64,000 nucleotides of DNA, from assembly GCA_965285935.1 (NCBI GenBank), contig OZ260665.1, positions 41,602,001-41,666,000 of the forward strand, given 5' to 3'. This DNA is from Ophelia neglecta (taxonomy: Eukaryota). Shown piece after piece: positions 1 to 61,888 of this stretch (position 1 is the first letter of the stretch; each line of letters starts with the position of its first letter). The notes beneath the pieces are model-generated. The model was given only the letters and a program-made list of their open reading frames with translations, was not told the DNA's origin and searched no databases. Made by a program: the position numbers and the translations under genes.

Positions 1-1112
1 TGCAGACTCTTGAACATCGCTATGGTGCAGCACTTCATCAGGGGAGGAGTAGTGCCTTTGCCTCTGTTCATCCTGAGGCTCCCCATGCTCATGCACGCCC
101 TCACTGTCATATGACTGGGAGCGTTCTAGCTGATCTTTGTCATGCTCCACAATATCCACAGGAAACTGGTTCTCTTGGCCGATCTGATCAAGACCCGACT
201 CAAACGTCATGTCTATGACTTTTTGTCTGGTTGGGGACCTAGCACTACTAGAGGGTACCTGGGCTTCAGTGTCTAACTCACCGGGCCTCTCCACTCCTGC
301 TTTACCTAGGTCTATGTCTATTGGTTTATCTTTGGTTATAGTGAATGACTTGACTTCATCTACACCAGATGCTTCTTTATACGTTATGAGGCCATCATCT
401 TTCATGTCCTCCCCTTCCCCCTTTTCAGGCCTATCTACGTCTAAGTCATCGTCTTTCTCTCTTTCGTCTATATCTTTCTCCTCAATGCTCACTGCTTCCT
501 TACCCCCGCTGTGTACATACAAATTCTCATAGCTTGAAGATTTGCCATCGGGCATCTGAGAAAGATGACTGTCAACATGTTTTGTATCAAACCGATCTCC
601 AATAGTCTCTGCAGTGATCTCAATTTCATCTGGCTCGTCGCTGGTAAATTGTGTTTCACGGTATATGTCTTCATAGCTTGACGATGACAGCCTATTCTTT
701 TCTTCCAGAGTGGCTTCATGCCCCCCTAACTCTATTGCATCATCAGCAATGACTTCTCCTTGTCTGACATCCAATTGAATTTCATGTTGGAAGTTGTCAG
801 TTTCTATGGACTGTGAGTATGTGTCATGTATCTGTGATTCGGAATATAAATCTTGCTCTGGGGCTTTGCCTTGCAGAGTGATCTTGGGTGGAACCACTGT
901 CAGGTCAGTAAATTGGGAGTCATAGTGATCAGTTAGAACATGCAATGCAGGCTCATCAAAAGAAGGCGGACTAGTTGCTAGTGTGATAGTTGCAGAGGTG
1001 GTAGTAATAGTATGGCATTCAGTTTGGGAAGTAGTAGTATCATCACTGGACAGGCGGGGTGAAGTTAGTGTAGCTGTTGCTGTTTCCACAAAATCACTCT
1101 CAGTGAATCTTT
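1..1112 (-). CDS. ANK: Further large ankyrin exon, truncated by the window edge
   Basis: Acceptor TTTCTACACTAACAG|AA with a CTAAC branch-like motif; phase-1 entry gives ERFTESDFVETATATLTSPRLSSDD... and an acidic frame that appears open to the window edge (no stop, so absent from the ORF track). Confidence 0.82.
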
Positions 1113-1567: not shown

Positions 1568-4500
1568 CTGTAGTTATTGTGGTGGAAGTGGTAGTAGAAA
1601 TGTCATCACTTTGCAAATGTGCAGGGTGAGTAGCAACTGGCAATTCTGGAGACCGGCTAGTGGAATGCATATTAGTAGATGTATCACTGATTATTTCTCC
1701 CATCTCAGGACATTTGGCCAACAAAAAATCTTCCTTTTCAGCTACAGCTGGGTCAATTGGCTCAGGAACAGAGTACACATCTTCTGGCATAATACCACTT
1801 TGAACATTCTGCAGATCTCTGTCATCATCAGTAACAAGCGTGTAGTCTGAGGGAGAAGGAGGTCGGTCTGAACTTGAAACACTAGTCACACTGGCAGCAA
1901 GGGCAGCAGCTTCAATAGACTGCTCAATGAAAATTTGCTGTGATGTGTCAGTACCGAGCCTGCCCTCAGATTCCTGCTCTAGATCAGCCTCCAGGGTATA
2001 GTCTGTGGGAGAAAGGGGACGTCTTCCACATAAAACTCCTTCATCATCGCCAGTAGGACTTACATCCTGAGAATCAAAGTCACTAGGAGGTTTTGAGCCC
2101 CGCTGTGCCTCCAGAGACAAGGAGGCCTCAAGCTTATATTTACGCTTCACAGGTACTTCATCAAAGTTAAAATCATCCTTATATTCTTGAGTCTCGCTTG
2201 CATTATTTGTGTCACTGATAAAAGTAGTCTGTGGCCCTCTTTGCAACTGTACAATAGCTATTTCCTGAAATTCTGCATCTACCTGTCCTGCTTCAATTTC
2301 TGCGGTCTTTTCACGCACTTTTTCCATATCGACATCTCCAGAGTTTTCACTAAAGTATAGTTCATTATCTGTGGGGCTCTGAATAAGTGGACTTGCCTCA
2401 ACAATTGCAATAGATGGGGCAATAAGCCCAGTACTCTGAGAGCCAGACTGAGATGGGGTTTCCTGTCTGGCATGGTCTGTTTCTTCAGTAACAAGAACAG
2501 ATGCAATGTTTTGTGGTTCAGCAACACATTCCTCAGAATAATCAAAATCTGGACTCTTTGACAGTGCAATATCAGAGGCTGATTGTAGGAAAACCTGCAT
2601 TACTGGCTCTTGGAACTCTTGTCTATCACTACTCTCCTGTCTAATCTCAAATTCTGAAATATCAATAAATTCACCATTTTTGTCAAAATTAGTACCATTC
2701 ATTTTAACACCAGAACCACCACCAACTGCTTCGGTTAAAACTTGGCAAGTGGACTCTGCTGCAACACTACCTTGAACACTGTCTTCAGATACTTTACCTA
2801 TTATTACTTGCGTAATATCAATATTTATAGAATCTACTTCACTACCTTCAAATCCAAATTTATCTTTTTCCATTGATTCTGCAATACCCTTTTCTGGTTG
2901 TTCGTCTATTTCTCTACCTATTAAGTCTTTATCAAACACATATATAACGTCTTCTTTGTCAGGCTTATCTAAGTCTTTAAGTGTGTCATTGTAAGGCAGG
3001 TCTTCAACGTCTTCCTGACTTATGTCACCAGTGTCAGATATATCTTCTATTTCTGCCTTTTCTACCAGATCAGATTCCTGGCTCCTCGCTTCTGCATCTT
3101 CGTCAAGGTCATCACATTGGGGTGCTTTCCCGTCTTCCAGTGGGGCCCCATCATCCAATGGAAGTTCTTCTGGCTCCTCCTGTAATCCTTCTGGAGGAGC
3201 CCCATACTCGGCATCATGAAATTCTTCATCCTCATCTTCAATATACACATCCTCGACAGTCTCTTGGAAGTCCTCTAGGCCTTGCTGCTCAGGGTCTTCA
3301 AGACTGGCAGATACGAAATGCTTTTCATCAAATGCAGCTGGTTCCAACGAAACCTTCATTTTGACCTTCTTCTGAGGAACATTTTCCAGTTGTTGAGTGA
3401 CATACTTCTCGAAATCTCCTTGACTGACTTGCACTGGGGTAACATCTGCACCAGATGTCTGGAATGTTTGCTTGCTTGGTTGAGGCTCAGCCAACAAGTG
3501 ATCCTGGGATGCAACAACATATCCTGATGGCTGTTCAACAAAACCAGGTACATAAGCAGGACTTTCCATTACCGTTCGCTCAGTTTTCCGTGACTGCTGA
3601 TTTGTTTTAGTAACTGTTTTTTTAAGAACACTGCCATCTGGTTGGACCTCTTCCACTTCCTCACTGAAAGTCAACGCATGAGGTTCAGTTAATGATGCAT
3701 CAGCATACACTCTCATTTCTGGAGCAATTGCACCAGCCATGGTAACTGGACTTTCATCTTCTGTTTGCGGGCCTTCCATGACAACTCTTTTGATTATTGT
3801 TTGTCTCTGTCTTCTTTTAATTACTTTCCTGATAATAATTCTTCCATCTGGAAGTGTCTCCTCATATTCCTTAATTTCTGTTTCTACCTGCGGCTCCCCT
3901 TCAATAGTATCACTGTATACTCGAATACTAGCTCTTGATGATACAGAGTCAGCAGGAGATACCAATTCACCAGGAGAGGTGAGGGACTGTGCAGGTGACA
4001 AAATTCCCTGGGAGTCACTGAAGCCAGACCGTAGACTTGAAGTTTCAGACATCTCAGATTCAGGAAGTTCTTCAGTTATCACATCTTCAAAAACTTCACC
4101 ATCAGGCCCAACTTTTCTTACTTTTCTAGTTACCATTCTCTTTACTCTAGCTTTGATGAGCTTCCTTCTAACTACAGTGCCATCAGGAAGAATTTCCTCA
4201 ACTTCCTCAAACCCAGCTGATGGACCAAAACATGGGGTTGAAACTTGTTTTGGAGCAACATCAAAAGAAACAGAATCGGCTGGTTTTTCAAATTCATCTC
4301 GGGATTGAGCTGGTGCATCATGCGATGGTAACTCTTCCTTTAAATCAAATCCTTCATGAATATGTGTTTTCTCCAATTGTATTTCATCAACTGGAAGGGC
4401 ACATACTTTCTCTACCTTTAATACTCCAGCAGATTTTTCTTCTGGTGAAACATCAGATGTAGTCTCTGACAGAAGAGAAATACCAATTGTCTTTGTTTCA

Positions 4501-7500
4501 TCCTGAAAAAGAGCAGGTTCTGCACTAGGAAAGATCACAATAGAAGGTTTATCCACTACATCTGAGTTATCTCTTTGCCCTTCATCAACTGCTGGCATAT
4601 TGGCAGACATATCAGGGGAAGGTGTCACCTGTATATCCTCATTTACTGTAAGTTCTGATATTTTGACCACTGGCTCTTCATCAGTTATAATTGGAGCTTC
4701 CTCAACGGCAGGACAGATAGGAGGAGTTGTGTCAAACTCGGTCTCGAATGTCACTTGTATTTTTTCCTCCCGAGGAGTGGCTCCCGTGTCAACAACTGCT
4801 GGAAAGACTGGCTTTTCAGAATCCATTGATTCCAACAGCTCTTCTGATACTTTCGTCAATTCTTCTGACTCCTCAGTCAATTCAGTTTTGAGCACTTCAG
4901 TTGCAGATGAAATTTCAGTTGAGGAATATTGTTGTTCTTGCCTACACATAACAGACTCTGTTCTTTGTTCGTCCTCTAGAATTAATACTCCAGCAGTGAT
5001 ATCAGAGTCTTTGATGATGGCGACGGGTGACTCTGCTCTCACCCCTATAACTATCCCACCATCTATGATTGCCCTGGCAGGCAGTTGTACTGGTGTCGGT
5101 GGTATATCTGCGGGTCTAGCCTCGCACACTGGATAAACAAAGTCGTCAGCAGGGCAGATGAGAGGAGTAGTCTCATACTCGGTCTCAATTTTCTTTTGTA
5201 TTTCTTCCTCTACAGGAGTGAGTTCGGTGTCCAGAACTGCTGGAATAACTGGCTTTTCAGAAACAATTGTTTCAACCAGCTCTTCTGATACTTCCTTTAC
5301 TTCTTCCGACTCTTCAGTTAGTTCAGTTTTGAACACTTCAGTTGAAGATTTAGTGGAAGAATATTGATATTCTTGCTCAGATATTACAGACTTTACTTTT
5401 TGTGTATCCTCCACAATTATCACGCCAGCAGAGATATCAGAGTCTTTGATGACAGTGACGGGTGATGCTGCTCTCACCCCAATAACTATTCCACCATCTA
5501 TGATTGCCCTGGCAGGTATTTCTGCTGGTGACTGTGGTATATACTCGGTTCTATCTTCACACACTGGATGATCAAAGACGTCTGAAGTTTTATCAACTGG
5601 TGCGGTCAACGCTTCCACCTTTACATCTTCAATTGTTGAAAAATCTGTTTCTTTGACAACAGACTCTTCATCAGGCTTAATTGGAGCTTCCACAGCCGCA
5701 GGTGAGATGGGTGGAGGTGTCTCAAAATCTGTCTCGATTGTCACTCGTATGTCTTCCTCTACAGGAGTGGGTTCGGTGTCCAGAACTGCTGGAATAACTG
5801 GCTTTTCAGAAACAATTGTTTCAACCAACTCTTCTGATACTTCCTTTACTTCATCCGACTCTTCAGTAAATTCAGTTTTGAACACTTCGGTCGAAGTTTC
5901 AGTGGAAGAATATTGATATTCTTGCTCAGATATTACAGACTCTACTTTTCGTGTATCCTCCACAATTATCACGCCAGCAGAGATACCAGAGTCTTTGACG
6001 ATAGTGACGGGTGATGCTGCTCTCACCCCAATAACTATTCCACCATCTATGATTGCCCTGGAAGGTATTTCTGCTGGTGACTGTGGTATATCCTCGGTTA
6101 TATCTTCACACACTGGATGATCAGAGACGTCTGAAGCTTTATCAACTGGTGCGGTTAACGCTTCCACCTTTACATCCTCAATTGTTGAAAGTTCAGTTTC
6201 TTTGTCCACAGACTCTTCATCAGGCTTAATTGGAGCTTCCACAACCGCAGGTGAGATGGGTGGAGCTGTCTCAAAATCTGTCTCTATTGTCACTTGTATG
6301 TCTTCCTCTACAGGAATGGGTTCGGTGTCCAGAACTGCTGGAATAACTGGCTTTTCAGCAACAATTGCTTCAACCAGCTCTTCTGATACTTCCTTTACTT
6401 CTTCCGACTCATCAGTAAATTCAGGTTTGAACCCTTCAGTTGAAGTTTCAGTGGAGGAATATTGATATTCTTGCTCAGATATTACAGACTCTACTTTTCG
6501 TGTATCCTCCACAATTATCACGCCAGCAAAGATATCAGAGTCTTTGATGACAGTGACGGGTGATGCTGCTCTCACTCCAATAACTATTCCACCATCTATG
6601 ATTGCCCTGGTAGGTATTTCTGCTGGTGACTGTGGTGTATCCACGGTTATACCTTCACACACTGGATGATCATAGACTGCTGAAGCTTTATCAACTGGTG
6701 CGGTTAACGCTTCCTCCTTTACATCATCCTCAATTGTTGAAAGTTCAGTTTCTTTGACCACAGACTCCTCATCAGGTTTAAGTGGAGCTTCCACAACCGC
6801 TGGTGAGATGGGTGGAGGTGTTTCAAAATCTGTCTTGATTGTCACTTGTATGTCTTCCTCTACTGGAGTGGGTTCGGTGTCCAGAACTGCTGGAATAACT
6901 GGCTTTTCAGAAACAATTGTTTCAACCAACTCTTCTGATACTTCCTTTACTTCTTCGGACTCTTCAGTAAATTTAGTTTTGAACACTTCAGTCGAAGTTT
7001 CAGTGGAAGAATATTGATATTCTTGCTCAGATATTACAGACTCTACTTTTCGTGTATCCTCTACAATTATCACGCCAGCAGAGATATCAGAGTCTTTGAC
7101 GATAGTGACGGGTGATGCTGCTCTCACCCCAATAACTATTCCACCATCTATGATTGCCCTGGCAGGTATTTCTGTTGGTGACTGTGGTGTATCCTCGGTT
7201 ATACCTTCACACACTGGATGATCATAGACTGCTGAAGCTTTATCAACTGGTGCGGTTAACGCTTCCTGCTTTACATCATCCTCAATTGTTGAAAGTTCAG
7301 TTTCTTTGACCACAGACTCCTCATCAGGTTTAAGTGGAGCTTCCACAACCGCTGGTGAGATGGGTGGAGGTGTCTCAAAATCTGTCTTGATTGTCACTTG
7401 TATGTCTTTCTCTACTGGAGTGGGTTCGGTGTCCAGAACTGCTGGAATAACTGGCTTTTCAGAAACAAATGTTTCAACCAACTCTTCTGACACTTCCTTT

Positions 7501-10500
7501 ACTTCTTCCGACTCTTCAGTAAATTCAGTTTTGAACACTTCAGTCGAAGTTTCAGTGGAAGAATATTGATATTCTTGCTCAGATATTACAGACTCTACTT
7601 TTCGTGTATCCTCCACAATTATCACGCCAGCAGAGATATCAGAGTCTTTGACGATAGTGACGGGTGATGCTGCTCTCACCCCAATAATTATTCCACCATC
7701 TATGATTGCCCTGGCAGGTATTTCTGCTGGTGACTGTGGTATATCCTCGGTTATATCTTCACACACTGGATGGTCAGATTCTTTGACCACAGACTCCTCA
7801 TCAGGTTTAAGTGGATCTTCCACAACCGCTGGTGAGATGGGTAGAGATGTCTCAAAATCTGTCTTGATTGTCACTTGCATGTCTTCCTCTACTGGAGTGG
7901 GTTCGGTGTCCAGAACTGCTGGAATAACTGGCTTTTCAGAAACAATTGTTTCAACCAACTCTTCTGATACTTCCTTTACTTTTTCCGACTCTTCAGTAAA
8001 TTCAGTTTTGAACACTTCAGTCGAAGTTTCAGTGGAAGAATATTGATATTCTTGCTCAGATATTACAGACTCTACTTTTCGTGTTTCCTCCACAATTATC
8101 ACGCCAGCAGAGATATCAGAGTCTTTGACGATAGTGACGGGTGATGCTGCTCTCACCCCAATAACTATTCCACCATCTATGATTGCCCTGGCAGGTATTT
8201 CTGCTGGTGACTGTGGTGTATCCTCGGGTATACCTTCACACACTGGATGATCATAGACTGCTGAAGCTTTATCAACTGGTGCGGTTAACGCTTCCTCCTT
8301 TACATCATCCTCAATTGTTGAAAGTTCAGTTTCTTTGACCACAGACTCCTCATCAGGTTTAAGTGGAGCTTCCACAACCGCTGGTGAGATGGTTGGAGGT
8401 GTCTCAAAATCTGTCTTGATTGTCACTTGTATGTCTTCCTCTACTGGAGTGGGTTCGGTGTCCAGAACTGCTGGAATAACTGGCTTTTCAGAAACAATTG
8501 TTTCAACCAACTCTTCTGATACTTCCTTTACTTCTTCCGACTCTTCAGTAAATTCAGTTTTGAACACTTCAGTCGAAGTTTCAGTGGAAGAATATTGATA
8601 TTCTTGCTCAGATATTACAGACTCTACTTTTCGTGTATCCTCCACAATTATCACGCCAGCAGAGATATCAGAGTCTTTGACGATAGTGACGGGTGATGCT
8701 GCTCTCACCCCAATAACTATTCCACCATCTATGATTGCCCTGGCAGGTATTTCTGCTGGTGACTGTGGTATATCCTCGGTTATATCTTCACACACTGGAT
8801 GATCAGAGACGTCTGAAGCTTTATCAACTGGTGCGGTTAACGCTTCCACCTTTACATCCTCAATTGTTGAAAGTTCAGTTTCTTTGTCCACAGACTCTTC
8901 ATCAGGCTTAATTGGAGCTTCCACAACCGCAGGTGAGATGGGTGGAGGTGTCTCAAAATCTGTTTCGATTGTCACTTGTATGTCTTCCTCTACAGGAATG
9001 GGTTCGGTGTCCAGAACTGCTGGAATAACTGGTTTTTCAGAAACAATTGCTTCAACCAGCTCTTCCGATACTTCCTTTACTTCTTCCGACTCATCAGTAA
9101 ATTCAGTTTTGAACACTTCAGTTGAAGTTTCACTGGAGGAATATTGATATTCTTGCTCAGATATTACAGACTCTACTTTTCGTGTACACTCCACAATTAT
9201 CACGCCAGCAGAGATATCAGAGTCTTTGATGACAGTGACGGGTGATGCTGCTCTCACCCCAATAACTATTCCTCCATCTATGATTGCCCTGGCAGGTATT
9301 TCTGCTGGTGACTGTGGTATATCCTCGGTTATACCTTCACACACTGGATGATCATAGACTGCTGAAGCTTTATCAACTGGTGCGGTTAACGCTTCCTGCT
9401 TTACATCCTCAATTGTTGAAATTTCGGTTTCTTTGACCACAGACTCCTCATCAGGTTTAAGTGGAGCTTCCACAACCGCAGGTGAGATGGTAGGAGGTGT
9501 CTCAATATCTCTCTCGATTGTCACTTGTATGTCTTCCTCTACAGGAGTGGGATCGGTGTCCAGAACTGCTGGAATAATTGGCTTTTCAGAAACAATTGTT
9601 TCAACCAACTCTTCTGATACTTCCTTGACTTCATCCGACTCTTCAGTAAATTCAGTTTTGAACACTTCGGTCGAAGTTTCAGTGGAAGAATATTCATATT
9701 CTTGCTCAGATATTACAGACTCTACTTTTCGTGTGTCCTCCACAATTATCACGCCAGCAGAGATATCAGAGTCTTTGACGATAGTGACGGGTGATGCTGC
9801 TCTCACCCCAATAACTATTCCACCATCTATGATTGCCCTGGCAGGTATTTCTGCTGGTGACTGAGGTATATCCTCGGCTATATCTTCACACACTGGGTGA
9901 TCAGAGACGTCTGAAGCTTTATCAACTGGTGCGGTTAATGCTTCCACCTTTACATCCTCAATTGTTGAAAGTTCAGTTTCTTGGTCCACAGACTCTTCAT
10001 CGGGCTTAATTGGAGCTTCCACAACCGCATGTGAGATGGGTGGAGGTGTCTCAAAATCTGTTTCGATTGTCACTGGTATGTCTTCCTCAACAGGAATGGG
10101 TTCGGTGTCCATAACTGCTGGAATAACTGGCTTTTCAGAAACAATTGCTTCAACCAGCTCTTCCGATACTTCCTTTACTTCTTCCGACTCATCAGTAAAT
10201 TCAGTTTTGAACACTTCAGTTGACGTTTCACTGGAGGAATATTGATATTCTTGCTCAGATATTACAGACTCTACTTTTCGTGTATCCTCCACAATTATCA
10301 CGCCAGCAGAGATATCAGAGTCTTTGATGACAGTGACGGGTGATGCTGCTCTCACCCCAATAACTATTCCTCCCTCTATGATTGCCCTGGCAGGTATTTC
10401 TGCTGGTGACTGTGGTATATCCTCGGTTATACCTTCACCCACTGGATGATCATAGACTGCTGAAGCTATATCAACTGGTGCGGTTAACGCTTCCTGCTTT

Positions 10501-13500
10501 ACATCCTCAACTGTTGAAATTTCAGTTTCTTTGACCACAGACTCCTCACCAGGTTTAAGTGGAGCTTCCACAACCGCAGGTGAGATGGGTGGAGGTGTCT
10601 CAAAATCTGTTTCGATTGTCACTTGTATGTCTTCCTCTACTGGAGTGGGTTCGGTGTCCAGAACTGCTGGAATAACTGGCTTTTCAGAAACAATTGCTTC
10701 AACCAGCTCTTCCGATACTTCCTTGACTTCTTCCGACTCATCAGTAAATTCAGTTTTGAACACTTCAGTTGAAGTTTCACTGGAGGAATATTGATATTCT
10801 TGCTCAGATATTACAGACTCTACTTTTCGTGTATCCTCCACAATTATCACGCCAGCAGAGATATCAGAGTCTTTGATGACAGTGACGGGTGATGCTGCTC
10901 TCACCCCAATAACTATTCTTCCATCTATGATTGCCCTGGCAGGTATTTCTGCTGGTGACTGTGGTATATCCTCGGTTATACCTTCACACACTGGATGATC
11001 ATAGACTGCTAAAGCTTTATCAACTGGTGCGGTTAACGCTTCCTGCTTTACATCCTCAATTATTGAAATTTTGGTTTCTTTGACCACAGACTCCTCATCA
11101 GGTTTAAGTGGAGCTTCCACAACCGCAGGTGAGATGGGTGGAGGTGTCTCAATATATCTCTCGATTGTCACTTGTATGTCTTCCTCTACAGGAGTTGGAT
11201 CGGTGTCCAGAACTGCTGGAATAATTGGCTTTTCAGAAACAATTGTTTCAACCAACTCTTCTGATACTTCCTTTACTTCATCCGACTCTTCAGTAAATTC
11301 AGTTTTGAACACTTCGGTCGAAGTTTCAGTGGAAGAATATTCATATTCTTGCTCAGATATTACAGACTCTACTTTTCGTGTGTCCTCCACAATTATCACG
11401 CCAGCAGAAATATCAGAGTCTTTGACGATAGTGACGGGTGATGCTGCTCTCACCCCAATAACTATTGCACCATCTATGATTGCCCTGGCAGGTATTTCTG
11501 CTGGTGACTGAGGTATATCCTCGGCTATATCTTCACACACTGGGTGATCAGAGACGTCTGAAGCTTTATCAACTGGTGCGGCTAACGCTTCCACCTTTAC
11601 ATCCTCAATTGTTGAAAGTTCAGTTTCTTGGTCCACAGACTCTTCATCAGGCTTAATTGGAGCTTCCACAACCGCATGTGAGATGGGTGGAGGTGTCTCA
11701 AAATCTGTTTCGATTGTCACTGGTATGTCTTCCTCTACAGGAATAGGTTCGGTGTCCAGAACTGCTGGAATAACTGGCTTTTCAGAAACAATTGCTTCAA
11801 CCAGCTCTTCCGATACTTCCTTTACTTCTTCCGACTCATCAGTAAATTCAGTTTTGAACACTTCAGTTGAAGTTTCACTGGAGGAATATTGATATTCTTG
11901 CTCAGATATTACAGACTCTACTTTTCGTGTACACTCCACAATTATCACGCCAGCAGAGATATCAGAGTCTTTGATGATAGTGACGGGCGATGCTGCTCTC
12001 ACCCCAATAACTATTCCTCCATCTATGATTGCCCTGGCAGGTATTTCTGCTGGTGACTGTGGTATATCCTCGGTTATACCTTCACCCACTGGATGATCAT
12101 AGACTGCTGAAGCTTTATCAACTGGTGTGGTTAACGCTTCCTGCTTTACATCCTCAATTGTTGAAATTTCAGTTTCTTTGACCACAGACTCCTCATCAGG
12201 TTTAAGTGGAGCTTCCACAACCGCAGGTGAGATGGTTGGAGGTGTCTCAAAATCTGTTTCGATTGTCACTTGTATGTCTTCCTCTACTGGAGTGGGTTCG
12301 GTGTCCAGAACTGCTGGAATAACTGGCTTTTCAGAAACAATTGTTTCAACCAACTCTTCTGATACTTCCTTTACTTCATCCGACTCTTCAGTAAATTCAG
12401 TTTTGAACACTTCGGTCGAAGTTTCAGTGGAAGAATATTGATATTCTTGCTCAGATATTACAGACTCTACTTTTCGTGTATCCTCCACAATTATCACGCC
12501 AGCAGATATATCAGAGTCTTTGACGATAGTGACGGGTGATGCTGCTCTCACCCCAATAACTATTCCACCATCTATGATTGCCCTGGCAGGTATTTCTGCT
12601 GGTGACTGTGGTATTTCCTCGGTTATACCTTCATCCACTGGATGATCATAGACTGCTGAAGCTTTATCAACTGGTGCGGTTAACGCTTCCTGCTTTACAT
12701 CCTCAATTGTTGAAAGTTCAGTTTCTTTGACCACAGACTCCTCATCAGGTTTAAGTGGAGCTTCCACAACCGCAGGTGAGATGGTTGGAGGTGTCTCAAA
12801 ATCTGTTTCGATTGTCACTTGTATGTCTTCCTCTACTGGAGTGGGTTCGGTGTCCAAAACTGCTGGAATAACTGGCTTTTCAGAAACAATTGTTTCAACC
12901 AACTCTTCTGATACTTCCTTTACTTCATCCGACTCTTCAGTAAATTCAGTTTTGAACACTTCGGTCGAAGTTTCAGTGGAAGAATATTGATATTCTTGCT
13001 CAGATATTACAGACTCTACTTTTCGTGTATCCTCCACAATTATCACGCCAGCAGATATATCAGAGTCTTTGACGATAGTGACGGGTGATGCTGCTCTCAC
13101 CCCAATAACTATTCCACCATCTATGATTGCCCTGGCAGGTATTTCTGCTGGTGACTGTGGTATATCCTCGGTTATATATTCACACACTGGATGATCAGAG
13201 ACGTCTGAAGCTTTATCAACTGGTGCGGTTAACGCTTCCACCTTTACATCCTCAATTGTTGAAAGTTCAGTTTCTTTGTCCACAGACTCTTCATCAGGCT
13301 TAATTGGAGCTTCCACAACCGCAGGTGAGATGGGTGGAGCTGTCTCAAAATCTGTCTCGATTGTCACTTGTATGTCTTCCTCTACAGGAATGGATTCGGT
13401 GTCCAGAACTGCTGGAATAACTGGTTTTTCAGAAACAATTGTTTCAACCAACTCTTCTGATACTTCCTTTACTTCATCCGACTCTTCAGTAAATTCAGTT

Positions 13501-16500
13501 TTGAACACTTCAGTTGAAGTTTCACTGGAAGAATATTGATATTCTTGCTCAGATATTACAGACTCTACTTTTCGTGTATCCTCCACAATTATCACGCCAG
13601 CAGATATATCAGAGTCTTTGACGATAGTGACGGGTGATGCTGCTCTCACCCCAATAACTATTCCACCATCTATGATTGCCCTGGCAGGTATTTCTGCTGG
13701 TGACTGTGGTATATCCTCGGTTATATATTCACACACTGGATGATCAGAGACGTCTGAAGCTTTATCAACTGGTGCGGTTAACGCTTCCACCTTTACATCC
13801 TCAATTGTTGAAAGTTCAGTTTCTTTGTCCACAGACTCTTCATCAGGCTTAATTGGAGCTTCCACAACCGCAGGTGAGATGGGTGGAGCTGTCTCAAAAT
13901 CTGTCTCGATTGTCACTTGTATGTCTTCCTCTACAGGAATGGGTTCGGTGTCCAGAACTGCTGGAATAACTGGCTTTTCAGAGACAATTGCTTCAACCAG
14001 CTCTTCTGATACTTCCTTTACTTCTTCCGACTCATCAGTAAATTCAGGTTTGAACACTTCAGTTGAAATTTCACTGGACGAATATTGATATTCTTGCTCA
14101 GATATTACAGACTCTACTTTTCGTGTATCCTCCACAATTATCACACCAGCAGAGATATCAGAGTCTTTGATGACAGTGACGGGTGATGCTGCTCTCACCC
14201 CAATAACTATTCCTCCATCTATGATTGCCCTGGCAGGTATTTCTGCAGGTGACTGTGGTGTATCCTCGGTTATACCTTCACACACTGGATGATCATAGAC
14301 TGCTGAAGCTTTATCAACTGGTGCGGTTAACGCTTCCACCTTTACATCCTCAATTGTTGAAATTTCAGTTTCTTTGTTCACAGACACCTCATCAGACTTA
14401 ATTCGAGCTTCCACAACCGCAGGTGAGATGGGTGGAGGTGTCTCAAAATCTGTTTCGATTAGCACTTGTATGTCTTCCTCTACTGGAGTGGGTTCGGTGT
14501 CCAGAACTGCTGGAATAACTGGCTTTTCAGAAACAATTGCTTCAACCAGCTCTTCTGATACTTCCTTTACTTCTTCCGACTCATCAGTAAATTCAGTTTT
14601 GAACACTTCAGTTGAAGTTTCAGTGGAGGAATATTGATATTCTTGCTCAGATATTACAGACTCTACTTTTCGTGTATCCTCCACAATTATCACGCCAGCA
14701 GTGATATCAGAGTCTTTGATGACAGTGACGGGTGATGCTGCTCTCACCCCAATAACTATTCCACCATCTATGATTGCCCTGGCAGGTATTTCTGCTGGTG
14801 ACTGTGGTGTATCCTCGGTTATATCTTCACACACTGGATGATCAGAGACGTCTGAAGCTTTATTAACTGGTGTGGTTAACACTTCCTGCTTTACATCCTC
14901 AATTGTTGAAAGTTCAGTTTCTAAGACCACAGACTCCTCATCAGGTTGAAGTGGAGCTTCCACAACCGCAGGTGAGATGGGTGGAGGTGTCCCAAAATCT
15001 GTCTCGCTTGTCACTTGTATGTCTTCCTCTACAGGAGTGGGTTCGGTGTCCAGAACTGCTGGAATAACTGGCTTTTCAGAAACAATTGTTTCAACCAACT
15101 CTTCTGATACTTCCTTGACTTCTTCCGACTCATCAGTAAATTCAGTATTGAACACTTCAGTTGAAGTTTCACTGGAGGAATATTGATATTCTTGCTCAGA
15201 TATTACAGACTCTACTTTTCGTGTATCCTCTACAATTATCACGCCAGCAGAGATATCAGAGTCTTTGACGATGGTGACGGGTGATGCTGCTCTCACCCCA
15301 ATAACTATTCCACCATCTATGATTGCCCTGGCAGGTATTTCTGCTGGTGACTGTGGTATATCCTCGGTTATACCTTCACCCACTGGATGATCATAGACTG
15401 CTGAAGCTTTATCAACTGGTGCGGTTAACGCTTCCTCCTTTACATCCTCAATTGTTGAAAGTTCAGTTTCTTTGACCACAGACTCCTCATCAGGTTTAAG
15501 TGGAGCTTCCACAACCGCTGGTGAGATGGGTGGAGGTGTCTCAAAATCTGTCTCGCTTGTCACTTGTATGTCTTCCTCTACAGGAGTGGGTTCGGTGTCC
15601 AGAACTGCTGGAATAACTGGCTTTTCAGAAACAATTGTTTCAACCAACTCTTCTGATACTTCCTTGACTTCTTCCGTCTCTTCAGTAAATTCAGTTTTGA
15701 ACACTTCAGTTGAAATTTTAGTGGAAGAATATTGATATTCTTGCTCAGATATTACAGACTCTACTTTTCGAGTATCCTCCACAATTATCAAGCCAGCAGA
15801 GATATCAGAGTCTTTGATGTTAGGGACGGGTGATGCTGCTCTCACCCCAATAACTATTCCACCATCTATGATTGCCCTGGCAGGTATTTCTGCTGGTGAC
15901 TGTGGTATATCCTCGGTTATATCTTTACACACTGGATGATCAGAGACTGCTGAAGCTTTATCAACTGGTGCGATTAACGCTTCCACCTTTACATCCTTAA
16001 TTGTTGAAAGTTCAGTTCCTATGTTCACAGACTCTTCATCAGGCTTAATTGGAGCTTCCACAAGCGAAGGAGAGATGGGTGGAGGTGTCTCAAAATCTGT
16101 CTCGATTGTCACTAGTATGTCTTCCTCTACAGGAATGGGTTCGGCGTCCAGAACTGCTGGAATAACTGGCTTTTCAGAATCAATTGCTTCAACCAGCTCT
16201 TCTGATACTTCCTTTACTTCTTCCGACTCATCAGTAAATTCAGTTTTGAACACTTCAGTTGAAGTTTCAGTGGAGGAATATTGATATTCTTGCTCAGATA
16301 TTACAGACTCAACTTTTCGTGTATCCTCCACAATTATCACGCCAGCAGAGATATCAGAGTCTTTGATGACAGTGACGGGTGATGCTGCTCTCACCCCAAT
16401 AACTATTCCACCATCTATGATTGCCCTGGCAGGTATTTTTGCTGGTGACTGTGGTATATCCTCCGTTCTATCTTCACACACTGGATGATCATAGACCGCT

Positions 16501-19500
16501 GAAGCTTTATCAACTGGTGCGGCTAACGCTTCCTGCTTTACATCCTCAATTGTTGAAAGTTCAGTTTCTTTGACCACAGACTCTTCATCAGGTTTAAATT
16601 GAGATTCCACAACCGCAGGAGAGATGGGTGGAGGTGTCTCAAATTCTGTTTCGATTGTCACTTGTATGTCTTCCTCTACTGGAGTGGGTTCAGTGTCCAG
16701 AACTGCTGGAATAACTGGCTTTTCAGAAACAATTGCTTCAACCAGCTCTTCTGGTGCTTCCTTTACTTCTTTCGACTCTTCAGTAAATTCAGATTTGAAC
16801 TCTTCAGTTGATATTTCAGTGGAAGAATATTGATATTCTTGCTCAGATATTACAGACTCTACTTTTCGTGTATCCTCCACAATTATCACGCCAGCAGAGA
16901 TATCAGAGTCTTTGATGACAGTGACGGGTGATGCTGCTCTCACCCCAATAACTATTCCACCATCTATGATTGCCCTGGCAGGTATTTCTGCTGGTGACTG
17001 TGGTATATCCTCCGTTCTATCTTCACACACTGGATGATCATAGACCGCTGAAGCTTTATCAACTGGTGCGGTTAACGCTTCCTGCTTTACATCCTCAATT
17101 GTTGAAAGTTCAGTTTCTTTGACCACAGACTCTTCATCAGGTTTAAGTTGAGCTTCCACAACCGCAGGAGAGATGGGTGGAGGTGTCTCAAAATCTGTTT
17201 CGATTGTCACTTGTATGTCTTCCTCTACTGGAGTGGGTTCAGTGTCCAGAACTGCTGGAATAACTGGCTTTTCAGAAACAATTGCTTCAACCAGCTCTTC
17301 TGATGCTTCCTTTACTTCTTTCGACTCCTCAGTAAATTCAGTTTTGAACTCTTCAGTTGAAATTTCAGTGGAAGAATATTGATATTCTTGCTCAGATATT
17401 ACAGACTCTACTTTTCGTGTGTCCTCCACAATTATCACGCCAGCAGAGTCTTGGATGAAAGCGACAGGCGATCCTGCTTCCACCCCAATAACTATCCCAC
17501 CATCTATAATTGCCCTGGCAGGTAGTTCTTTTGGTGACGTAAGTTTATCCTCACAAACTGGACCATCAACATCTGGGTTTATACCTTGTTTTACTACATC
17601 TTTCTCACCTGGAAATAAAATTGCAACTGTATTATTATCTTGCACATATAGTGCCTGTTTTTCCTCAACAGATTCAAACGTTTGTTCATCAGTATAAATA
17701 TTCTCGCAGCTCGATGTTTTTCCACTTTCTAATTTGCGATAGTGCTCTTCAGTGTATTTACTTTCGAACTCATCACCAATCACACGAGAGGAAACTTTTG
17801 CTTCCTTAATAGTTCCAGTCGCAGGGAAATATTTAACTAATTTATTTATAACAGTTCTGTGTATCGGAGTTCCATCTTCCAAATATTCATCATAATCTTG
17901 TATGGATGTTTCACTTTCTGTATCTTCACTTAATGTTCCTTGAAATCCCAACGGCAGGTGTAATATTTCTTCAACCACCTTTATACTTTGTTGTGTTCTT
18001 TCAATAATTGATTCTATGCCATCTACAATTACATTTTCAGTAACTGGTATAACGGTCTTCGTGGTAGTAACGGTCTTTTGACACTCAGTACCATTTTCCA
18101 ATACATAAGAACATTTATTTACATCTGTGATTATTTCCTCTTGCATTTCCCCAGCCACAATTTCATGCTCACCTAGTAAAGGTGCATCAGGTGGTAGTCG
18201 CTGTACTGTGGTTTTTACTACGTGATGTTTAATCCATGTACCATCCGGTAGAACATCGCTAAACTGTTCCACTGATGTTTCGGTGCATAAATTTTCTCCA
18301 TAATATGGTTCTTCAACCCCAGCAGGTATCTGTAAAATGTCAGTATAAACCTCTTTTCCAACTATGTTCCTTACTCCATTTATCTCATGCATGTAAATTG
18401 TTTTGGTTACAGTGTGTTTAGTAACAGTTCCATCTTCTGCAATATCCTCAGATTCTTCAGCACTCTCTGTAGTCTGAATTATGTTTTTTCCATCATCCTG
18501 CACTGTAGTCTCAGTAACCTGACTTGTTTCGAAGAGGTCCGAAACACTTTCTTCTTCAATATAATTTTCCTCTTCAGACAAATATGATTTTTCATCTGAT
18601 TCATCTACAGATAATCTCACATTACCCATGGTTTTATCTGCTGCTTGGACACTTTCAGGATGGGTAATATCTACAGGTGCTTGGCAAACTTCTTCAGTGA
18701 TCGTTGAGGTGTACTCTTTTGCAATGACTGCTTCTGGTGGACACGCTGGAGATGTTCCTAATGCAGGTTCTGCATATAGAATTTCTTCCTTTTTATGTTT
18801 ATATATAATTGATGTATCAATCTTTTCTTCATAAGTTTCTGGAATATTTTGTTCATTGACTTTTTCATGAGAGTATTCCCCTTGGTTAGAAATCGTGTCT
18901 AGGGACATTCTTTTCTGCTCAGCAACATCATCAATGCGAGTATTTTCCAACTGTTCCTGGACTACATAAATAGGTTGGTCAAATAATGCCTGTTCCGACA
19001 CTAAGCTAGGTGACTCTGTGTGCATAGCACACTCTTCCATTGTCAATCCTGATGATACATCCAGCACTTCTTCAAGTGACTCTCCATCTTGCTCCTGTAT
19101 TTGTTGAACAAACTGCTGAACAATGGGCTCTTCTGTTGGTACAGTGTAGCTCACCTCTTCTTTAAGCGACTGTTCATGGACTAAGTCCTTAACAGGGCTT
19201 CCAAATCCTTCTTTCTGTTCCTCGAAATCTCCTTGTTCTTTGACAAAAGTCAGGGGCTGCTTTAAAATGTGTTGCTTGACCTCTTCTAGGGATGCTTGTT
19301 CTATTCTCCCAGTTACCACTTCTTTGTGGTAAAAAGATTCTTCTACTTCTTTTTTCGATTGTATTTCTTGTACAACAACATGCTGCAATGGGATGCTTTT
19401 TTCAATTTTATCTTCTCTTTCTTCTACTAATCCTTGTGCATATTGTGGAGTTTCAGCAGGGGACTCTACAACAACACCATCTGTTACGGTACCTGACCAC

Positions 19501-22785: not shown

Positions 22786-24494
22786 CTGTTTATACAGGAT
22801 TAAAAACAAATGTTGTAATGAAAAACAATAAAAAAAGTTATTTGCTCTTTCAACACTAAATATTTCAATTTAAAAAAAGAAGGGAAGATATAGAGACACT
22901 GTTGTGATATTGGCAGAATATTAGTTAAATGTTAGCCATACCCAGCTAAAAGACTACCATTAAGCACCAAGTCTATCTTTATAGCCACTATAACTAATGC
23001 ACCAGCAATAAATTTTATTAGTGGCATCTATTATACAATAGACAGAACTATTTACGATTACTAAGAGTGTAACTTAGACAGAGAATTGGTTCACACTACA
23101 GAAGCATAATGACCTCTTCAGTATTTGTCACACCTTTTTATTTCATTTTGATTGGGGTATGTGAATTTGGATTAAATGAAATATCCGCATTTCAGGTAAC
23201 ATTTCCTAATCTTTGTGCTGCCCTATTTTTATCTTACTTTTTTCTAGCTACCAAATAAAATAAAATCCAAGCCGCCACTAGCCAGATGAATCAAGTGAGT
23301 GAAACTAAATTTTAACTACTTGCACATGGCACCTCTTGCTTCTGCCATGACATGGCACCCTATTCCATTTACATTCACCCATACTAGTTTGCCGATAACA
23401 TTTAGTGGTAACTCTGATACACAAGTAGTCCTATAACCCAAAGCTGACGAGTAGACAACAAATTAGATATGTAGTGAGAGGTAATATATATTAATATATA
23501 TATATTCCTACCTACCTACCCTCTTTTCTTGGAAGCGGTTATATATTTTTAGGGCTAACCCTACATGAGAACATGATGCATAATTATGCTTATATCCTGC
23601 CTAAACCTCATCCTGGCACTATACTTTCGACCCCATAAGTTAAGGCTAAATATCAGAAACTATCATTATAACTATCATTATAAACTATTTAGGAATTGAA
23701 TGACACAATAATACAACATGTAAGATACAAATACTTAAAAGAGGTCAGAATACAACTTTAATAACCATCATTGTAACCTGCATACAAAAGCATTGAACAA
23801 ATGAAGCAAAAGAGTTGCATTCTGGAATTATGATGGGAAGTCTCAATGCTTTTGCAGGCAATATAATTAGTGATATTAATAAAGTGCTTTGGTTATAATT
23901 CTTAACCATAAGGCAATGAATGATTACACCTTGATTATTCATAGCTTGTATTTAAGTGCATCATATTGCTTAATCTGTGCATAGATAGTGATGTAGTCCA
24001 TAATGCAATGTACAGAGCTGAAATGTTTTACAGCATAGCTTTTTGCAAGTAGAAATGCAACCCTTGGACCTATTTAAAACATGATTCATATATCTATGAT
24101 CAACCTATATCATTAGGATTCTTATTAAATAAGCAGGGGTTTTCAATCATTATAATAAAAGTTTAAAATTATGTTCTGTCTAAAAGAATGAGCTAGTCAT
24201 ACCGTTTATAACTATCAGATGTTTCTTTCCCTTTCAAAGTTTGTGTGATATTTGTACATATTTCTACTTAACTGACAGTGGGGGAATTACATCAGATCTG
24301 CACATGTACAGCTTGAACCGTCATTAGTATTATTTTTCTACAACCAAAACCCTTTGCTAATAAGCCTCTTATAGAATTATATCTACAAAAAGCGGGGTAT
24401 TGCTTGATTAGAGGAAGGGAAGGGTAAGGAGAGCAGCAAGTGGCAATTCAAATCCAAAGCACAGTCTGCTCATGCATATACCACTGTTCCTAAC

Positions 24495-27400
24495 CTGTCT
24501 TTGGCTGATCCTGCAGTACTGGCATTATTTCAGGTTCATCTATAACTGAATGTTGTTGGCTATCTGGCTCATTTTCTATCTCACCCACCGAAACCTGAAT
24601 AATTTCTTCATCAGACTCTATAAATGGATCGTTTTGAGGAACCATATTGCTTCTTGGTCGTGACTCATCAGCAATCAAGGATTCATTAATGATTTCACTA
24701 TACAACCCGTTCTCACCTGCGAAGCCATGCCTTTCCAATTCAGGGGCTACATCACCTTCTAAAATAGTACGTTCAGTCTTGAGCTGTTGCTCTGTTGTAG
24801 TGACAATCTTACGTTTCACCACTGTGCCATCTTCAAGTGTTTCTTCATACTCTTGCACGTCAGTTGCAGTTTCAGGTTCCCCATCTTGTCTATCGGTGTA
24901 TTTAGAATACTCAGGTTCCATTAAATCTGCTCGACTGAGAATATCCTGGGCTTGTTCCTCATTTGAAGGCAATTCTGTCTCAGGTCCTTCCAGCACAACC
25001 CGTTTGATAATTGTCTGCTTTTGCTTCGTTTTGATGACTTTTCGTTTTACCACAGTTCCATCAGGCAGCGTTTCCTCAAACTCTTGAACATCAGTTTCTA
25101 CTTGTGGTTCACCTTCAATAGTGTCTGTGTACATGCGAACACTTCCTCCTTCATTGTCAGACTCATAGGGAGAATGAATGGCTGCAGGAGACATGGAAGG
25201 AATAGGTGAGGAAAGTTCACGGGCATCACTGATACTTGAACGAATACTTGAAGTATCTGAAAAAATTTCAGACTCTGGAACCTCCTCAGTAATAACATCC
25301 TCAACAACATCCCCATCAGGACCCACCCTACGGATCTTTTTTGTCACCACTTTCTTTACTTTTGCTTTCATTACTCTACGTTTTACTATGCTACCATCTA
25401 AAAGCACTTCCTCAATTTCTTCAAAGTCATCAGATATTTCCCCAGATGGATACACTCCTTGTTGGAAAGGAGCATGAGGGTCAGCATGAATTTCCTCTTC
25501 ACTGACAGGCTTCTTCACCGCTTCGACAGGTTTAACAAGGTCAGGAGAAATTGTATATTCATCTACAGCTGAAGACGACATTATTGATGTTCTTGTCCGG
25601 GTAACGACACTCTTTATCCAGGATCCATCAGGTAATGACTCTTCACTTTCTTGGACTGAGGGTTTGGTGGCTAGGTTAGGACCTGTTATGTCCGTGACTC
25701 CAGCTGGCACTTCACTGATATCGGTCTTGATGTCCTTGCCAACAACGAAGACTGTTTCATTTTCTATCTCTCCCTCTTCTGGGTGGAGGATCTTTTCCTT
25801 TACCGGTTGAGAGTGGCTGACAGTTGTGACCTTGGTTGTTACTACAGTGCCATCTTCAAGTGTCTCCACATTTTCCTGCACATCTTCACTGGTGGTCACT
25901 GGACCGGTTTCTTTCTCTATCACTACTGGACCGGTTAACGTAGAAGTAGATTTAGTTGTGGTTTTCTTTATCCAAGAACCATCTGGCAAGCCTTGTTCTG
26001 ACTCAGATGTGCTGATTTTTGTTGATATATTTGGGATATTGGTATCTGTGACACCTACAGGAATTTCGGTTATCTCTTCTTCTATTTCCTTTCCGACCAA
26101 TGATTCCTTCTCTTGGATTGTTTCTGTGCCATCTTTATCCACTATCTCGGTAACTGGCTGAATATGAGATATTGTGGTCACTCTAGTCTTAATATAAGTT
26201 TTATGAACTCCGGTTTCTACAATATTTTCACTCTCCTGAACATCAGTCTTGGTTATGACATCTCCTTTTGTCACTTGCAAAAGTTTCTCAGAATCTACAG
26301 GAATCGACAATGGTTCTTGTGGAAGGAATTCTGCCTCAATACCTTCAACAGTCACCTTCTGTTCAGATTCAACAGGAGGTGCCTGTGCTCCAACCACCTT
26401 GACTGTTGTGGATTTGACTTGCTTTTTGACCCACGTACCATCTGGTAGGGTTTCTTCCAAGTCCTTTATAGCAACCTCTGTGGCCAGATCGTCCCCCTCA
26501 ACACTACTCACACCTGCTGGTAAGGAAGTGATCTCTTCAAGGATTTCGGCTCCCAATGTTTGCTCTACAACATTGCTGGTTGGTTGTCCATCCACTACCA
26601 GGTGCTCAGTAACTTCCTGGACATGTGTTGTAGTAGTGATTCTGGTGTTGACAGTTGTTCCATCATCCAATGACTCGGTTTTCTCCTGAACATCAGTTTT
26701 AGTGGTCACTGGGCCCAGTTCTCTTTCTACTGGCTGAACCTGTTCCACTGGTTGAGGGCCCACTATGGATGTGCTTGTCCGGGTAACTACACTCTTTATC
26801 CAGGATCCATCCGGCAATGACTCCTCACTTTCTTGGACTGAGGTTTTGTTGGCTAGGTTAGGACCTGTTATGTCCGTGACTCCAGCTGGTACTTCACTGA
26901 TATCAGTCTTGATGTCCTTGCCAACTACAAAGACTGTTTCATTTTCTATCTCTCCCTCTTCTGGGTGGAGGATCTTTTCCTTTACCGGTTGAGAGTGGCT
27001 GACAGTTGTGACCTTGGTTGTTACTACAGTGCCATCTTCAAGTGTCTCCACATTGTCCTGCACATCTTCACTGGTGGTCACTGGACCGGTTTCTTTCTCT
27101 ATCACTACTGGACCGGTTAACGTAGAAGTAGATGTAGTTGTGGTTTTCTTTATCCAAGTACCATCTGGCAAGCCTTGTTCTGACTCAGATGTGCTGATTT
27201 TTGTTGATATATTTGGGATATTGGTATCTGTGATACCTACAGGAATTTCAGTTATCTCTTCTTCTATTTCCTTTCCAACCAATGATTCCTTCTCTTGGAT
27301 TGCATCTTTGCCCTCTTTATCCACTATCTCGGTAACTGGCTGAATATGAGAGATTGTGGTCACTTTAGTCTTGATATGAGTTTTAAGAACGCCGGCTTCA

Positions 27401-46100: not shown

Positions 46101-46820
46101 ATTTTGACTTTACTTTCGTTCCATTATCAAGGATATTTTCGGTTTCTTTTATCTCTGATTTTGTAACTATTTCGCCTTGGGAAACTTTACTCGTAGTTAC
46201 AGGACTTTGAAGCAAAGTTTCTTTCTTCAGTGTAGCGTAAATTGTTTTGACTGTTCTTCTTAGGTAAGACCCATTGCTTTGTACAGTTTCAGACGTTTCT
46301 GCCTCACATTCGTCTCTTTCAAGTTCTTCCAGATTTTCAAAAGAGACCCCAGCCGGCACATAAGTAATCTCTTCCTGGATGTCTGTGCCTATTAGTACTT
46401 CTTCAATGATATTGGAACTTTCTTCTATCCCATCAATGAATACTTTCTCAATATGTGGTTCAATGTGTGAAATAGTAGTCACTTTGGTTATAACGGTAGT
46501 GCCATCTTGTTGGGTTTGTTTATTTTCAGTTACACTACATTTATCTTGGATTGGTGCTTTTATAATATCCTTAGTCACTGCTGGTGGTTTTGTAGGAGGG
46601 ACAATTTCAGTTATGTCAGATTCTAGGATATGATCTGGAACAGTTTCAGAGTACACCATTTCAACAGGTTCTGCGGTTTGGGGGACACTAATCTTGTCAA
46701 CTAGTTCTTGTTCTATTCCAGTTGGGCTAACAGTGTCATAGCTTTCCTGAAATGTTCCCCTGTCTGGGTGTTCAGGGGTTGGAGTAAGTTCCCTGTCTTC
46801 TTCTGACGGAGAACCTCTTT
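40194..46820 (-). CDS. ANK: Giant exon A (6,627 bp, about 2,209 aa), E/T/V/K-rich repeats
   Basis: Lies inside ORF 40117..46911; acceptor ATTTCCAG|AA, donor CAAG|GTAGGA; phase 1-1. Confidence 0.88.
40260..45845 (-). repeat. Coding tandem array, 12 x 477 bp (159 aa), moderately diverged
   Basis: The THYKP anchor recurs every 474-477 bp from about 40483 to 45724; two further diverged modules extend to about 46550. Confidence 0.92.
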
Positions 46821-61453: not shown

Positions 61454-61888
61454 CTTTAAAAAATATTAAATACAAATCACCTAATGAGTACATGTGTTTT
61501 ATCAAGGACTTATCTGCTACCAATTTCAATGCATGTTTATTCATATACTATCATTTAAACATCACATAAATTAATGTATATTCAGCAATGTACCATATTC
61601 TCTGAAATAAGCGTCTAGGTCACTTATTCAACCCAAGTAGAAATAAAACAAATCCCCCTGTCTACTTTTATGCATGACACCCCAAAAACCTTGTGAAAAT
61701 TGTCAAAATGGATAGATTTTGACAAAAAAGAAGGGTGGGCACTTATTAGGGCATGGTGGCTTATTACAAAAAATACTGTAAGAATTGTGTCAATTGTGCT
61801 CTGCATGATGGAAATTCTGATGCAGTGTTTGATTAAATTAATTTGAATTATTAGGGACTTTTCATTGTTAGATACTATGGGTGCTTAC

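What the first reader, a model, noticed from the sequence alone, without database searches (positions are those of the whole stretch)
3560..4215. Exon C carries a paralogous copy of the exon B end block: giant exons arose by duplication and then acquired different repeats
Seen: the roughly 220-aa block FEEVEEILPDGTVVRRKLIKARVKRMVTRKVRKVGPDGEVFEDVITEELPESE...SETSSLRS...RVYSDTIEGEPQVETEIKEYEETLPDG...QTIIKRVVMEGP...KTERTVME is colinear with 24755-25430, with many synonymous and conservative differences. In both exons it follows the repeat array. Inference: an old exon duplication with a conserved functional cap, so B and C may be alternative, interchangeable arms.
Basis: partly seen in the sequence, partly recalled or inferred. 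Interest (0 to 1): 0.7.

Follow-up and report, generated by a model that had tools for sequence, protein, structure and literature searches.

The report
Twin blocks in worm giant ankyrin
Two giant exons of one ankyrin gene, likely from an annelid worm, carry the same 220-residue block from an old, conserved exon duplication; the exons are likely spliced as alternatives, and the exon B copy likely also serves the short ankyrin through a splice site inside the exon.

Summary
Blocks at 4211-3564 (exon C) and 25425-24757 (exon B) are 115/215 identical (score 580, shuffles at most 156), with synonymous sites near saturation (pS 0.72, pN 0.29). They lie in the genome's only detected ankyrin gene, after the death domain; the only named relative is the leech Helobdella. 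B-type and C-type blocks of relatives form two groups (SH-aLRT 97), and a species-specific duplication is rejected (AU p 7e-5).

(2) B's repeats are an amplified ancestral ~115-aa module, predicted all-beta (pLDDT 94.6), which C retains twice and from which the block derives; only C gained a new repeat. (3) The copies have diverged in type-specific ways, so they are probably not interchangeable.

New: an acceptor inside B (25181, best of 1,478 AGs) matches a relative's short-isoform junction. In relatives, spliced B-type ends join the terminal exons, never C. Alternative use of B and C is likely but untested in this species. New variant of giant ankyrin.

The parts
3564..4211 (-). C copy of the block: three hairpin half-modules (m1, m2, m3), Ser/Pro linker between m1 and m2
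   Evidence: groups with C-type blocks of relatives
24757..25425 (-). B copy of the block (m1, Ser/Pro linker, m2, predicted helix, m3)
25181..25201 (-). Predicted internal phase-1 acceptor in exon B (AG at 25183-25182, first exon base 25181); would give a 687-nt short exon B' with m2 and m3 only
   Evidence: rank 1 of 1,478 AGs in exon B; same offset as the short-isoform junction of relative L014 against P0014
24495..39491 (-). Giant exon B, 14,997 nt by predicted sites, phase 1-1; upstream acceptor weak (score 0.4)
25591..39357 (-). 35 copies of the ~115-aa module in B: 2 leading copies plus 11 units of 394 aa (3 modules each; units 98.8% identical in DNA)
24471..24494 (-). Predicted B donor followed by a TGCATG element (RBFOX-type; label recalled)
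   Evidence: GCATG also downstream of the B donor in L009 and L010
1568..20383 (-). Giant exon C, 18,816 nt by predicted sites, phase 1-1; donor context reads G-T-N at the ORF end in 4 relatives
17832..18479 (-). Two decayed copies of the ~115-aa module at the head of C
   Evidence: HMM E 1.3e-10 and 5.1e-12
4720..17520 (-). C-specific array, 24 units of about 183 aa, unrelated to the A/B module (bounds approximate)
   Evidence: score 64 against shuffle mean 66
3342..3368 (-). Short basic motif after the C block, matching a K-F-K-I-S-M-E-like motif found after C-type blocks of relatives
40194..46820 (-). Giant exon A, 6,627 nt, 14 modules, 159-aa period
1..1112 (-). Exon D (1,131 nt, runs 18 nt past the window edge); exon E (10,404 nt), the penultimate exon and the terminal exon lie beyond the window
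61887..63139 (-). UPA exons and death-domain exon of the ankyrin core
   Evidence: Pfam UPA_2 E 7e-27 and 1e-22, Death E 5e-11

Best explanation
Exons B and C of this ankyrin gene share a block that arose by an old duplication inside the gene and is under purifying selection in both; transcripts likely carry one copy at a time, B (giant, or short through a predicted internal splice site) or C, and the block likely serves as a protein-docking site near the C-terminal end of the tail. Shown: homology, selection, two groups across relatives, and a shared ancestral ~115-aa module that B amplified and C kept twice before gaining an unrelated 183-aa array and a 670-aa tail. Inferred from relatives: the B donor splices to the penultimate exon and skips C, D and E, and the short ankyrin enters B at 25181 and keeps m2-m3. 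Predicted: the module is a folded all-beta domain, and m1-m3 are copies of its N-terminal half, which would leave open strand edges for a partner. The partner is likely cytoskeletal; this last step is the weakest (about 0.3).
For: Homology and selection: (orthologues are closer than paralogues: B vs L009 74%, C vs L011 67%, B vs C 53%; pS 0.66-1.00 in all 21 pairs). Age: a 30-row tree splits 18 B from 12 C rows, SH-aLRT 97; holding the two window copies together is rejected, p-AU 7e-5. Order: B then a C-head motif on one contig in L010; C, D, E in L011. Ancestry: a module HMM finds 14 copies in A, 35 in B, 2 in the C head, and the block itself (E 2e-11 in B, 1.7e-6 in C); m2 matches the module's N-half better than all 1,000 shuffles in both copies; AF2 of the module gives pLDDT 94.6, pTM 0.77. 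Internal acceptor: best of 1,478 AGs in B, score 5.9 against -4.3 to 8.1 for 16 other acceptors of the gene; the same site ranks 1 of 137 in L010. L014 (short) and P0014 (full block) become near-identical at the same offset, at a phase-1 junction. No separate small exon for m2-m3 was found in this genome. Splicing in relatives: of 793 sequences scanned, 14 hold the terminal exon; 8 have a non-C m2 in the same ORF, 3 more are B-like products missed by the cut-off or split by a frameshift (P0046, P0142, L012), 1 is D-to-terminal (P0183) and 2 are unspliced; 0 of 28 C-type sequences hold it. P0183 and P0014 share 84 identical last residues but arrive from D and from B respectively. L015 runs core, modules, C head, C block with no B block.
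Against: Splicing in this species is untested; every splice site is predicted. Most relatives' sequences are single genomic ORFs that cannot show co-inclusion, and transcripts holding both arrays would be over 30 kb and hard to assemble, so 0 of 210 with both types is weak. It is not known that the genes behind the B-to-terminal transcripts contain C (P0014's gene does contain D). L015 has a divergent core (UPA 41% identical) and may be a paralogue that lost B. Nothing forces exclusion: B and C are both multiples of 3, all phase 1-1, with a 4.1-kb intron. The internal acceptor is not universal: rank 18 of 238 in L009, absent at that place in L013, and L016, L017 and L029 have m2-m3 as separate small exons. 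The acceptor matrix rests on 16 sites, and Ser/Pro codons are pyrimidine-rich anyway. The tree is unrooted, quick mode, LG+G4. The block's own model is weak (pLDDT 63.9, pTM 0.34). No binding partner was tested.
Confidence: 0.6

Rival explanations
1. B and C are independent cassettes that are often included together, giving one tail with two docking blocks separated by about 5,500 aa; the longest isoform would add up to 17,325 aa from exons A-E.
For: All five exons are phase 1-1 and multiples of 3, and the B-C intron is 4.1 kb, so frame and spacing allow it. Assemblies under-sample very long repetitive transcripts.
Against: All 11 spliced relatives with a B-like 3' end and a visible next exon go to the penultimate or terminal exons. 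A B-to-C junction lies in unique sequence on both sides and should assemble if common.
Confidence: 0.25
2. One reading: B and C are strictly mutually exclusive, functionally interchangeable arms with equivalent caps.
For: Tandem paralogous exons of the same phase; no sequence with both types; in the Helobdella-containing group the C-type ORF ends soon after the block, as B does.
Against: Type-specific conserved differences: m3 is 20/51 identical between copies against 34-37/51 among B orthologues; linker 2 differs; C has its own downstream motif and a 670-aa tail. Only B has the internal acceptor. B's array is predicted folded and C's is unrelated.
Confidence: 0.1
3. The two blocks are not a duplicated unit but independent assemblies of a common hairpin module, or were kept alike by gene conversion.
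For: The module is abundant in the gene (51 copies outside the blocks) and m1-m3 resemble each other.
Against: Colinearity includes the non-module Ser/Pro linker (18/42 identical). Block-to-block score is 580 against 129-148 for block-to-repeat. Synonymous saturation excludes recent conversion.
Confidence: 0.05

Closest known systems
Bilaterian giant ankyrins (Jegla et al. 2016, PMC5135030)
   Same: ANK-ZU5-UPA-DD core with long exons after the death domain, as in protostomes; Glu/Ser/Thr/Asp/Lys/Pro-rich; repeat arrays.
   Different: Four exons over 3 kb plus D, 51,975 nt in all, against at most two long exons (largest sum about 33 kb, Drosophila) in their S4 table. They report that long-exon homology is rapidly lost, whereas this block stays 51-74% identical across species with saturated synonymous sites. 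Annelids were represented there only by earthworm transcripts.
Branchiostoma floridae ankyrin, two homologous long exons (PMC5135030)
   Same: Tandem long exons made by exon duplication.
   Different: That one is described as recent; this one is old, homology survives only in the block and two modules, and the arrays differ.
Drosophila Ank2-L and Ank2-XL (PMC6703079, PMC5135030)
   Same: One gene with alternative giant isoforms with distinct tails; XL has a spacer array of 93 repeats.
   Different: L and XL exons are reported as non-homologous; here the alternative exons share a paralogous block, and one is predicted to hold a short-isoform acceptor.
Obscurin-binding domains of vertebrate muscle ankyrins (PMC3575540)
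   Same: Two tandem short domains in the C-terminal regulatory region, alternatively included; the likeness of the strand pattern with basic residues is recalled, not from a call.
   Different: Sequence homology is not established here; no binding or tissue data.
Giant ankyrin-B insert (PMC7401806)
   Same: Repeat-containing giant exon product.
   Different: That insert is predicted and partly shown to be disordered; the A/B module here is predicted to be a folded all-beta domain.

Membership tests
Bilaterian giant ankyrin | ANK-ZU5-ZU5-UPA-DD core | tested here: met
   UPA_2 and Death above Pfam cut-offs; ZU5-region exons 74-87% identical to P0026 and ankyrin-repeat-like ORFs upstream; repeat number not counted
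Bilaterian giant ankyrin | Long exon over 3 kb downstream of the death domain | tested here: met
   A 6.6, B 15.0, C 18.8, E 10.4 kb, boundaries predicted
Bilaterian giant ankyrin | Ser+Glu+Thr+Asp+Lys+Pro over 55% | tested here: inconclusive
   A 55.7, B 54.1, C 52.7%: at or just under the published average
Bilaterian giant ankyrin | Giant isoform expressed, neuronal | not testable with these tools
   giant-type spliced products seen only in relatives (L012, L013, L015, P0014, P0071); no tissue data
Mutually exclusive duplicated exon pair | Tandem paralogous exons of the same phase | tested here: met
Mutually exclusive duplicated exon pair | Frame or spacing constraint that forces exclusion | tested here: not met
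   both lengths are multiples of 3; intron 4.1 kb
Mutually exclusive duplicated exon pair | Never included together, one always included | tested here: inconclusive
   relatives only; the sequence upstream of D in P0183 did not match C
Vertebrate ankyrin obscurin-binding domain | Position in the C-terminal regulatory region of short isoforms | tested here: met
   P0026, L014 and L018 carry m2-m3 between the death-domain side and the terminal exon
Vertebrate ankyrin obscurin-binding domain | Sequence homology | tested here: inconclusive
   see Tried and rejected
Vertebrate ankyrin obscurin-binding domain | Binds obscurin, muscle-specific | not testable with these tools
   no binding or tissue data
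G5/E or other solved beta-repeat folds (for the ~115-aa module) | Structural match over most of the domain | tested here: inconclusive
   see Tried and rejected

The most novel reading that the evidence does not exclude
Annelid giant ankyrin is a splice-selected spacer kit. One docking unit, built from half-copies of a folded all-beta domain, is shown at three distances from the membrane: close in (short B'), at the end of a rod of up to 49 folded beta domains (A+B), or inside a disordered arm (C-D-E). This would be a giant ankyrin tail made of folded domains, titin-like in design, and the unit could be the invertebrate counterpart of the muscle obscurin-binding domains.
Probability: 0.3. Interest if true: 0.7.

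Novelty: new variant of a known kind. Interest (0 to 1): 0.45.

Why it matters
The origin of giant ankyrin exons is debated because their sequences lose homology quickly. Here a conserved block lets the history be traced: a piece of the short ankyrin tail was likely extended into a giant exon by an upstream acceptor, then duplicated and refilled with different repeats. It gives specific junctions to test (entry at 25181; 24495 to 20383 or to the penultimate exon) and a predicted folded repeat domain in a protein class usually treated as disordered. The finding as first stated, an old exon duplication, has precedent and is of moderate interest.

Tried and rejected
RNA: no RNA holder listed; runs X1-X3 are contigs of one sample that span introns without joints, so they are DNA.

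Family and structure searches for the block: Pfam gave nothing above cut-off. PDB sequence searches with the block, its profile, m2, the terminal exon and the module profile gave only chance-level rows (best E 0.3). Human ankyrin-1 (1,881 aa) is in that library and was hit by the death domain but not by the block; that isoform may lack part of the muscle insert, so this does not exclude remote homology. Fold searches gave no Foldseek match at E 0.001 for either model; best VIA Z was 4.9 (rmsd 3.2, 59 aligned) for the block and 5.0 (rmsd 4.2, 89 aligned) for the module, which shows neither a new fold nor a known one. The ESM Atlas returned no usable hit for either, which shows neither novelty nor absence.

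Taxonomic reach: the profile search found 179 proteins at E 0.001 among 1.84 billion, 150 listed, unnamed. Look-ups of 20 proteins gave no organism. Helobdella robusta (P0047) is the only named hit, so restriction to annelids is not shown. The S2 table of PMC5135030 is cut at 400 characters per cell, so mollusc and earthworm tails could not be read; they bear on the block's range.

Other: a third small-exon copy and a second ankyrin gene were not found in this genome. A head motif common in relatives' B exons was not found in the window. ACTAAY-type motifs near splice sites were no clearer than background (about 1 per kb) and were dropped. The first full IQ-TREE run timed out and was replaced by FastTree on 47 rows and a quick IQ-TREE on 30 hand-picked full-length blocks; half-blocks and most near-duplicates were left out. 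Earlier findings: none returned. Literature searches listed no paper on this block or on annelid ankyrin exon structure beyond PMC5135030; the library lacks most subscription papers.

Full report
Setting. The window holds the 3' part of an ankyrin gene on the minus strand. UPA_2 and Death domains are at 63139-61887, and it is the only UPA-bearing gene found in the 762-Mb genome. After several small exons come five large open frames: A, B, C and D, and beyond the window E, a penultimate exon and a terminal exon. Predicted splice sites make all five phase 1-1 and multiples of three: 6,627, 14,997, 18,816, 1,131 and 10,404 nt (the C donor was first set one base off and corrected from the printed sequence). 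The only named homologue is from the leech Helobdella robusta, so the animal is inferred to be an annelid.

Observation. The C block (4211-3564) and B block (25425-24757) align colinearly at 115/215 identity, score 580 against shuffle maxima of 86 and 156. pS is 0.72 and pN 0.29, so dN/dS is roughly 0.15 with dS near saturation. Only two full copies were found in the genome, and DNA contigs confirm both regions. The block is 88 aa from the end of B but 671 aa from the end of C.

Age. Searches gave 49 proteins, 43 loci and 179 profile hits, 150 listed. In a tree of 30 chosen full blocks, 12 rows (labelled C from an earlier tree, a block motif and downstream flanks) separate from 18 B rows with SH-aLRT 97; the C side includes Helobdella. 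Forcing the window's two copies together is rejected (p-AU 7e-5), as is the pair from another sample. Orthologues are closer than paralogues (B to L009 74%, C to L011 67%, B to C 53%), with synonymous sites saturated throughout. L010 has B followed 6.5 kb later by a C-head motif, and L011 has C, D, E in the same order. The tree is unrooted, so 'older than the split from leeches' is likely but not shown.

What was duplicated. An HMM from exon A's repeat finds a ~115-aa module 14 times in A, 35 times in B and twice, decayed, at the head of C, and it also matches the block. B's array is 11 near-identical units of three modules; C's 24 units of 183 aa are unrelated. The ancestral exon was therefore likely modules plus block. 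B amplified the modules, and C gained a new array between its modules and block, plus a long tail. AlphaFold2 predicts the module as an all-beta domain with long strands (pLDDT 94.6). The block's parts match the module's N-terminal half best (m2 clearly, m1 and C's m3 weakly) and are modelled as hairpins at low confidence (pLDDT 63.9). Docking by strand addition is my inference from that.

Splicing. A spliced short ankyrin from a relative (P0026) carries only m2-m3 of a B-type block before the terminal exon, yet no small exon for it was found in this genome. An AG inside B at 25183-25182 is the best-scoring of 1,478 AGs in the exon. The same site ranks 1 of 137 in L010 but 18 of 238 in L009, and the C copy has no AG there. 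A short-isoform transcript (L014) and a full-block transcript of a close relative (P0014) become near-identical at the same offset, at a phase-1 junction. I put use of this site in this species at about 0.75. Some relatives instead have m2-m3 as separate small exons (L016, L017, L029), so the arrangement varies. Of 793 related sequences, 14 hold the terminal exon: 11 arrive from a B-like end, one from D, and two are unspliced; none of 28 C-type sequences holds it, and none of 210 has both types. P0014 and P0183 share 84 identical last residues but come from B and from D, so downstream large exons are really skipped in that gene. L015 reaches a C block without a B block but is a divergent ankyrin. 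This favours alternative use (about 0.55-0.6). Most hits, however, are single genomic ORFs, frame does not force exclusion, and this species' own transcripts are untested.

Not interchangeable. m3 is 20/51 identical between the copies but 34-37/51 among five B orthologues, and the linkers differ by type. C-type blocks are followed by their own short basic motif. In the Helobdella-containing group the C-type ORF ends about 160-230 aa after the start of m2, against 570-790 aa in four relatives with the long tail, which end in the same donor context as the window.

Known systems. Jegla et al. 2016 (PMC5135030; I read the abstract, the first 4 of 10 parts of the text, the S4 table whole, search passages, and four S2 rows cut at 400 characters) report long exons after the death domain in protostomes, two tandem long exons in 8 of 23 loci, a recently copied long exon in Branchiostoma, and rapid loss of long-exon homology. 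Drosophila Ank2-L and XL are alternative giant isoforms (PMC6703079, passages). Vertebrate muscle ankyrins carry two obscurin-binding domains in a 76-aa insert (PMC3575540, passages); the likeness to m2-m3 is recalled and not established. The giant ankyrin-B insert is largely disordered (PMC7401806, passages). Other papers were seen only as search listings.

Verdict. A real, old exon duplication in a giant ankyrin: a new variant of a known kind. The likely short-isoform acceptor and the predicted folded module add interest. Interest 0.45; most novel reading probability 0.3, interest 0.7.

Noticed in passing
window 46575-40255 and 39357-25591 (-): 49 copies of a ~115-aa module, predicted as a confident all-beta domain (pLDDT 94.6); relatives carry up to about 42 per ORF.
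   Followed up: partly
window 46820 to 11.6 kb left of the window (G000:C8): Five large exons total 51,975 nt (17,325 aa), more than any locus in the S4 table of PMC5135030.
   Followed up: partly
window 40193-39492: A and B are separated by only 702 nt and B's acceptor is weak; some relatives have head, modules and block in one ORF (P0050), so A+B may be one exon split by an intron.
   Followed up: no
window 38600-25600: B units are 98.8% identical in DNA, C units 94%, A units 82%: arrays homogenised at different times; the B copy number could be mis-assembled.
   Followed up: no
window 24476-24471; L009 and L010 after the B donor: TGCATG or GCATG shortly after the B donor in three species, a possible RBFOX-type enhancer (label recalled).
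   Followed up: partly
window 20385-20378: The predicted C acceptor is immediately followed by a donor-like sequence (AG/GTAAAC), as in recursive splice sites.
   Followed up: no
P0017, P0019, P0032, P0034, P0035, P0037: ORFs in which a UPA half runs straight into module arrays and a block with no death domain detected: a possible ankyrin paralogue with the giant part fused to UPA.
   Followed up: no
L036, L040, L041, L045: Two tandem giant ORFs, each ending in a strongly diverged block, followed in related loci by an E-like exon (L042, L043): a tandem pair in another lineage, not placed in the tree.
   Followed up: partly
P0001: An array of about 96-aa repeats made of the block's m2-like half-modules rather than full modules.
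   Followed up: no
window 53312-54099: Intronic tandem repeat with a 21-nt unit that leaves open frames on the + strand.
   Followed up: no
window 54818-54708, 52109-52018, 49637-49578 (-): Small exons between the death domain and exon A that match relatives' transcripts.
   Followed up: partly
L004, about 36.5-37.1 kb left of the window start: A 180-aa ORF resembling the endonuclease part of a LINE-type element (resemblance recalled).
   Followed up: no
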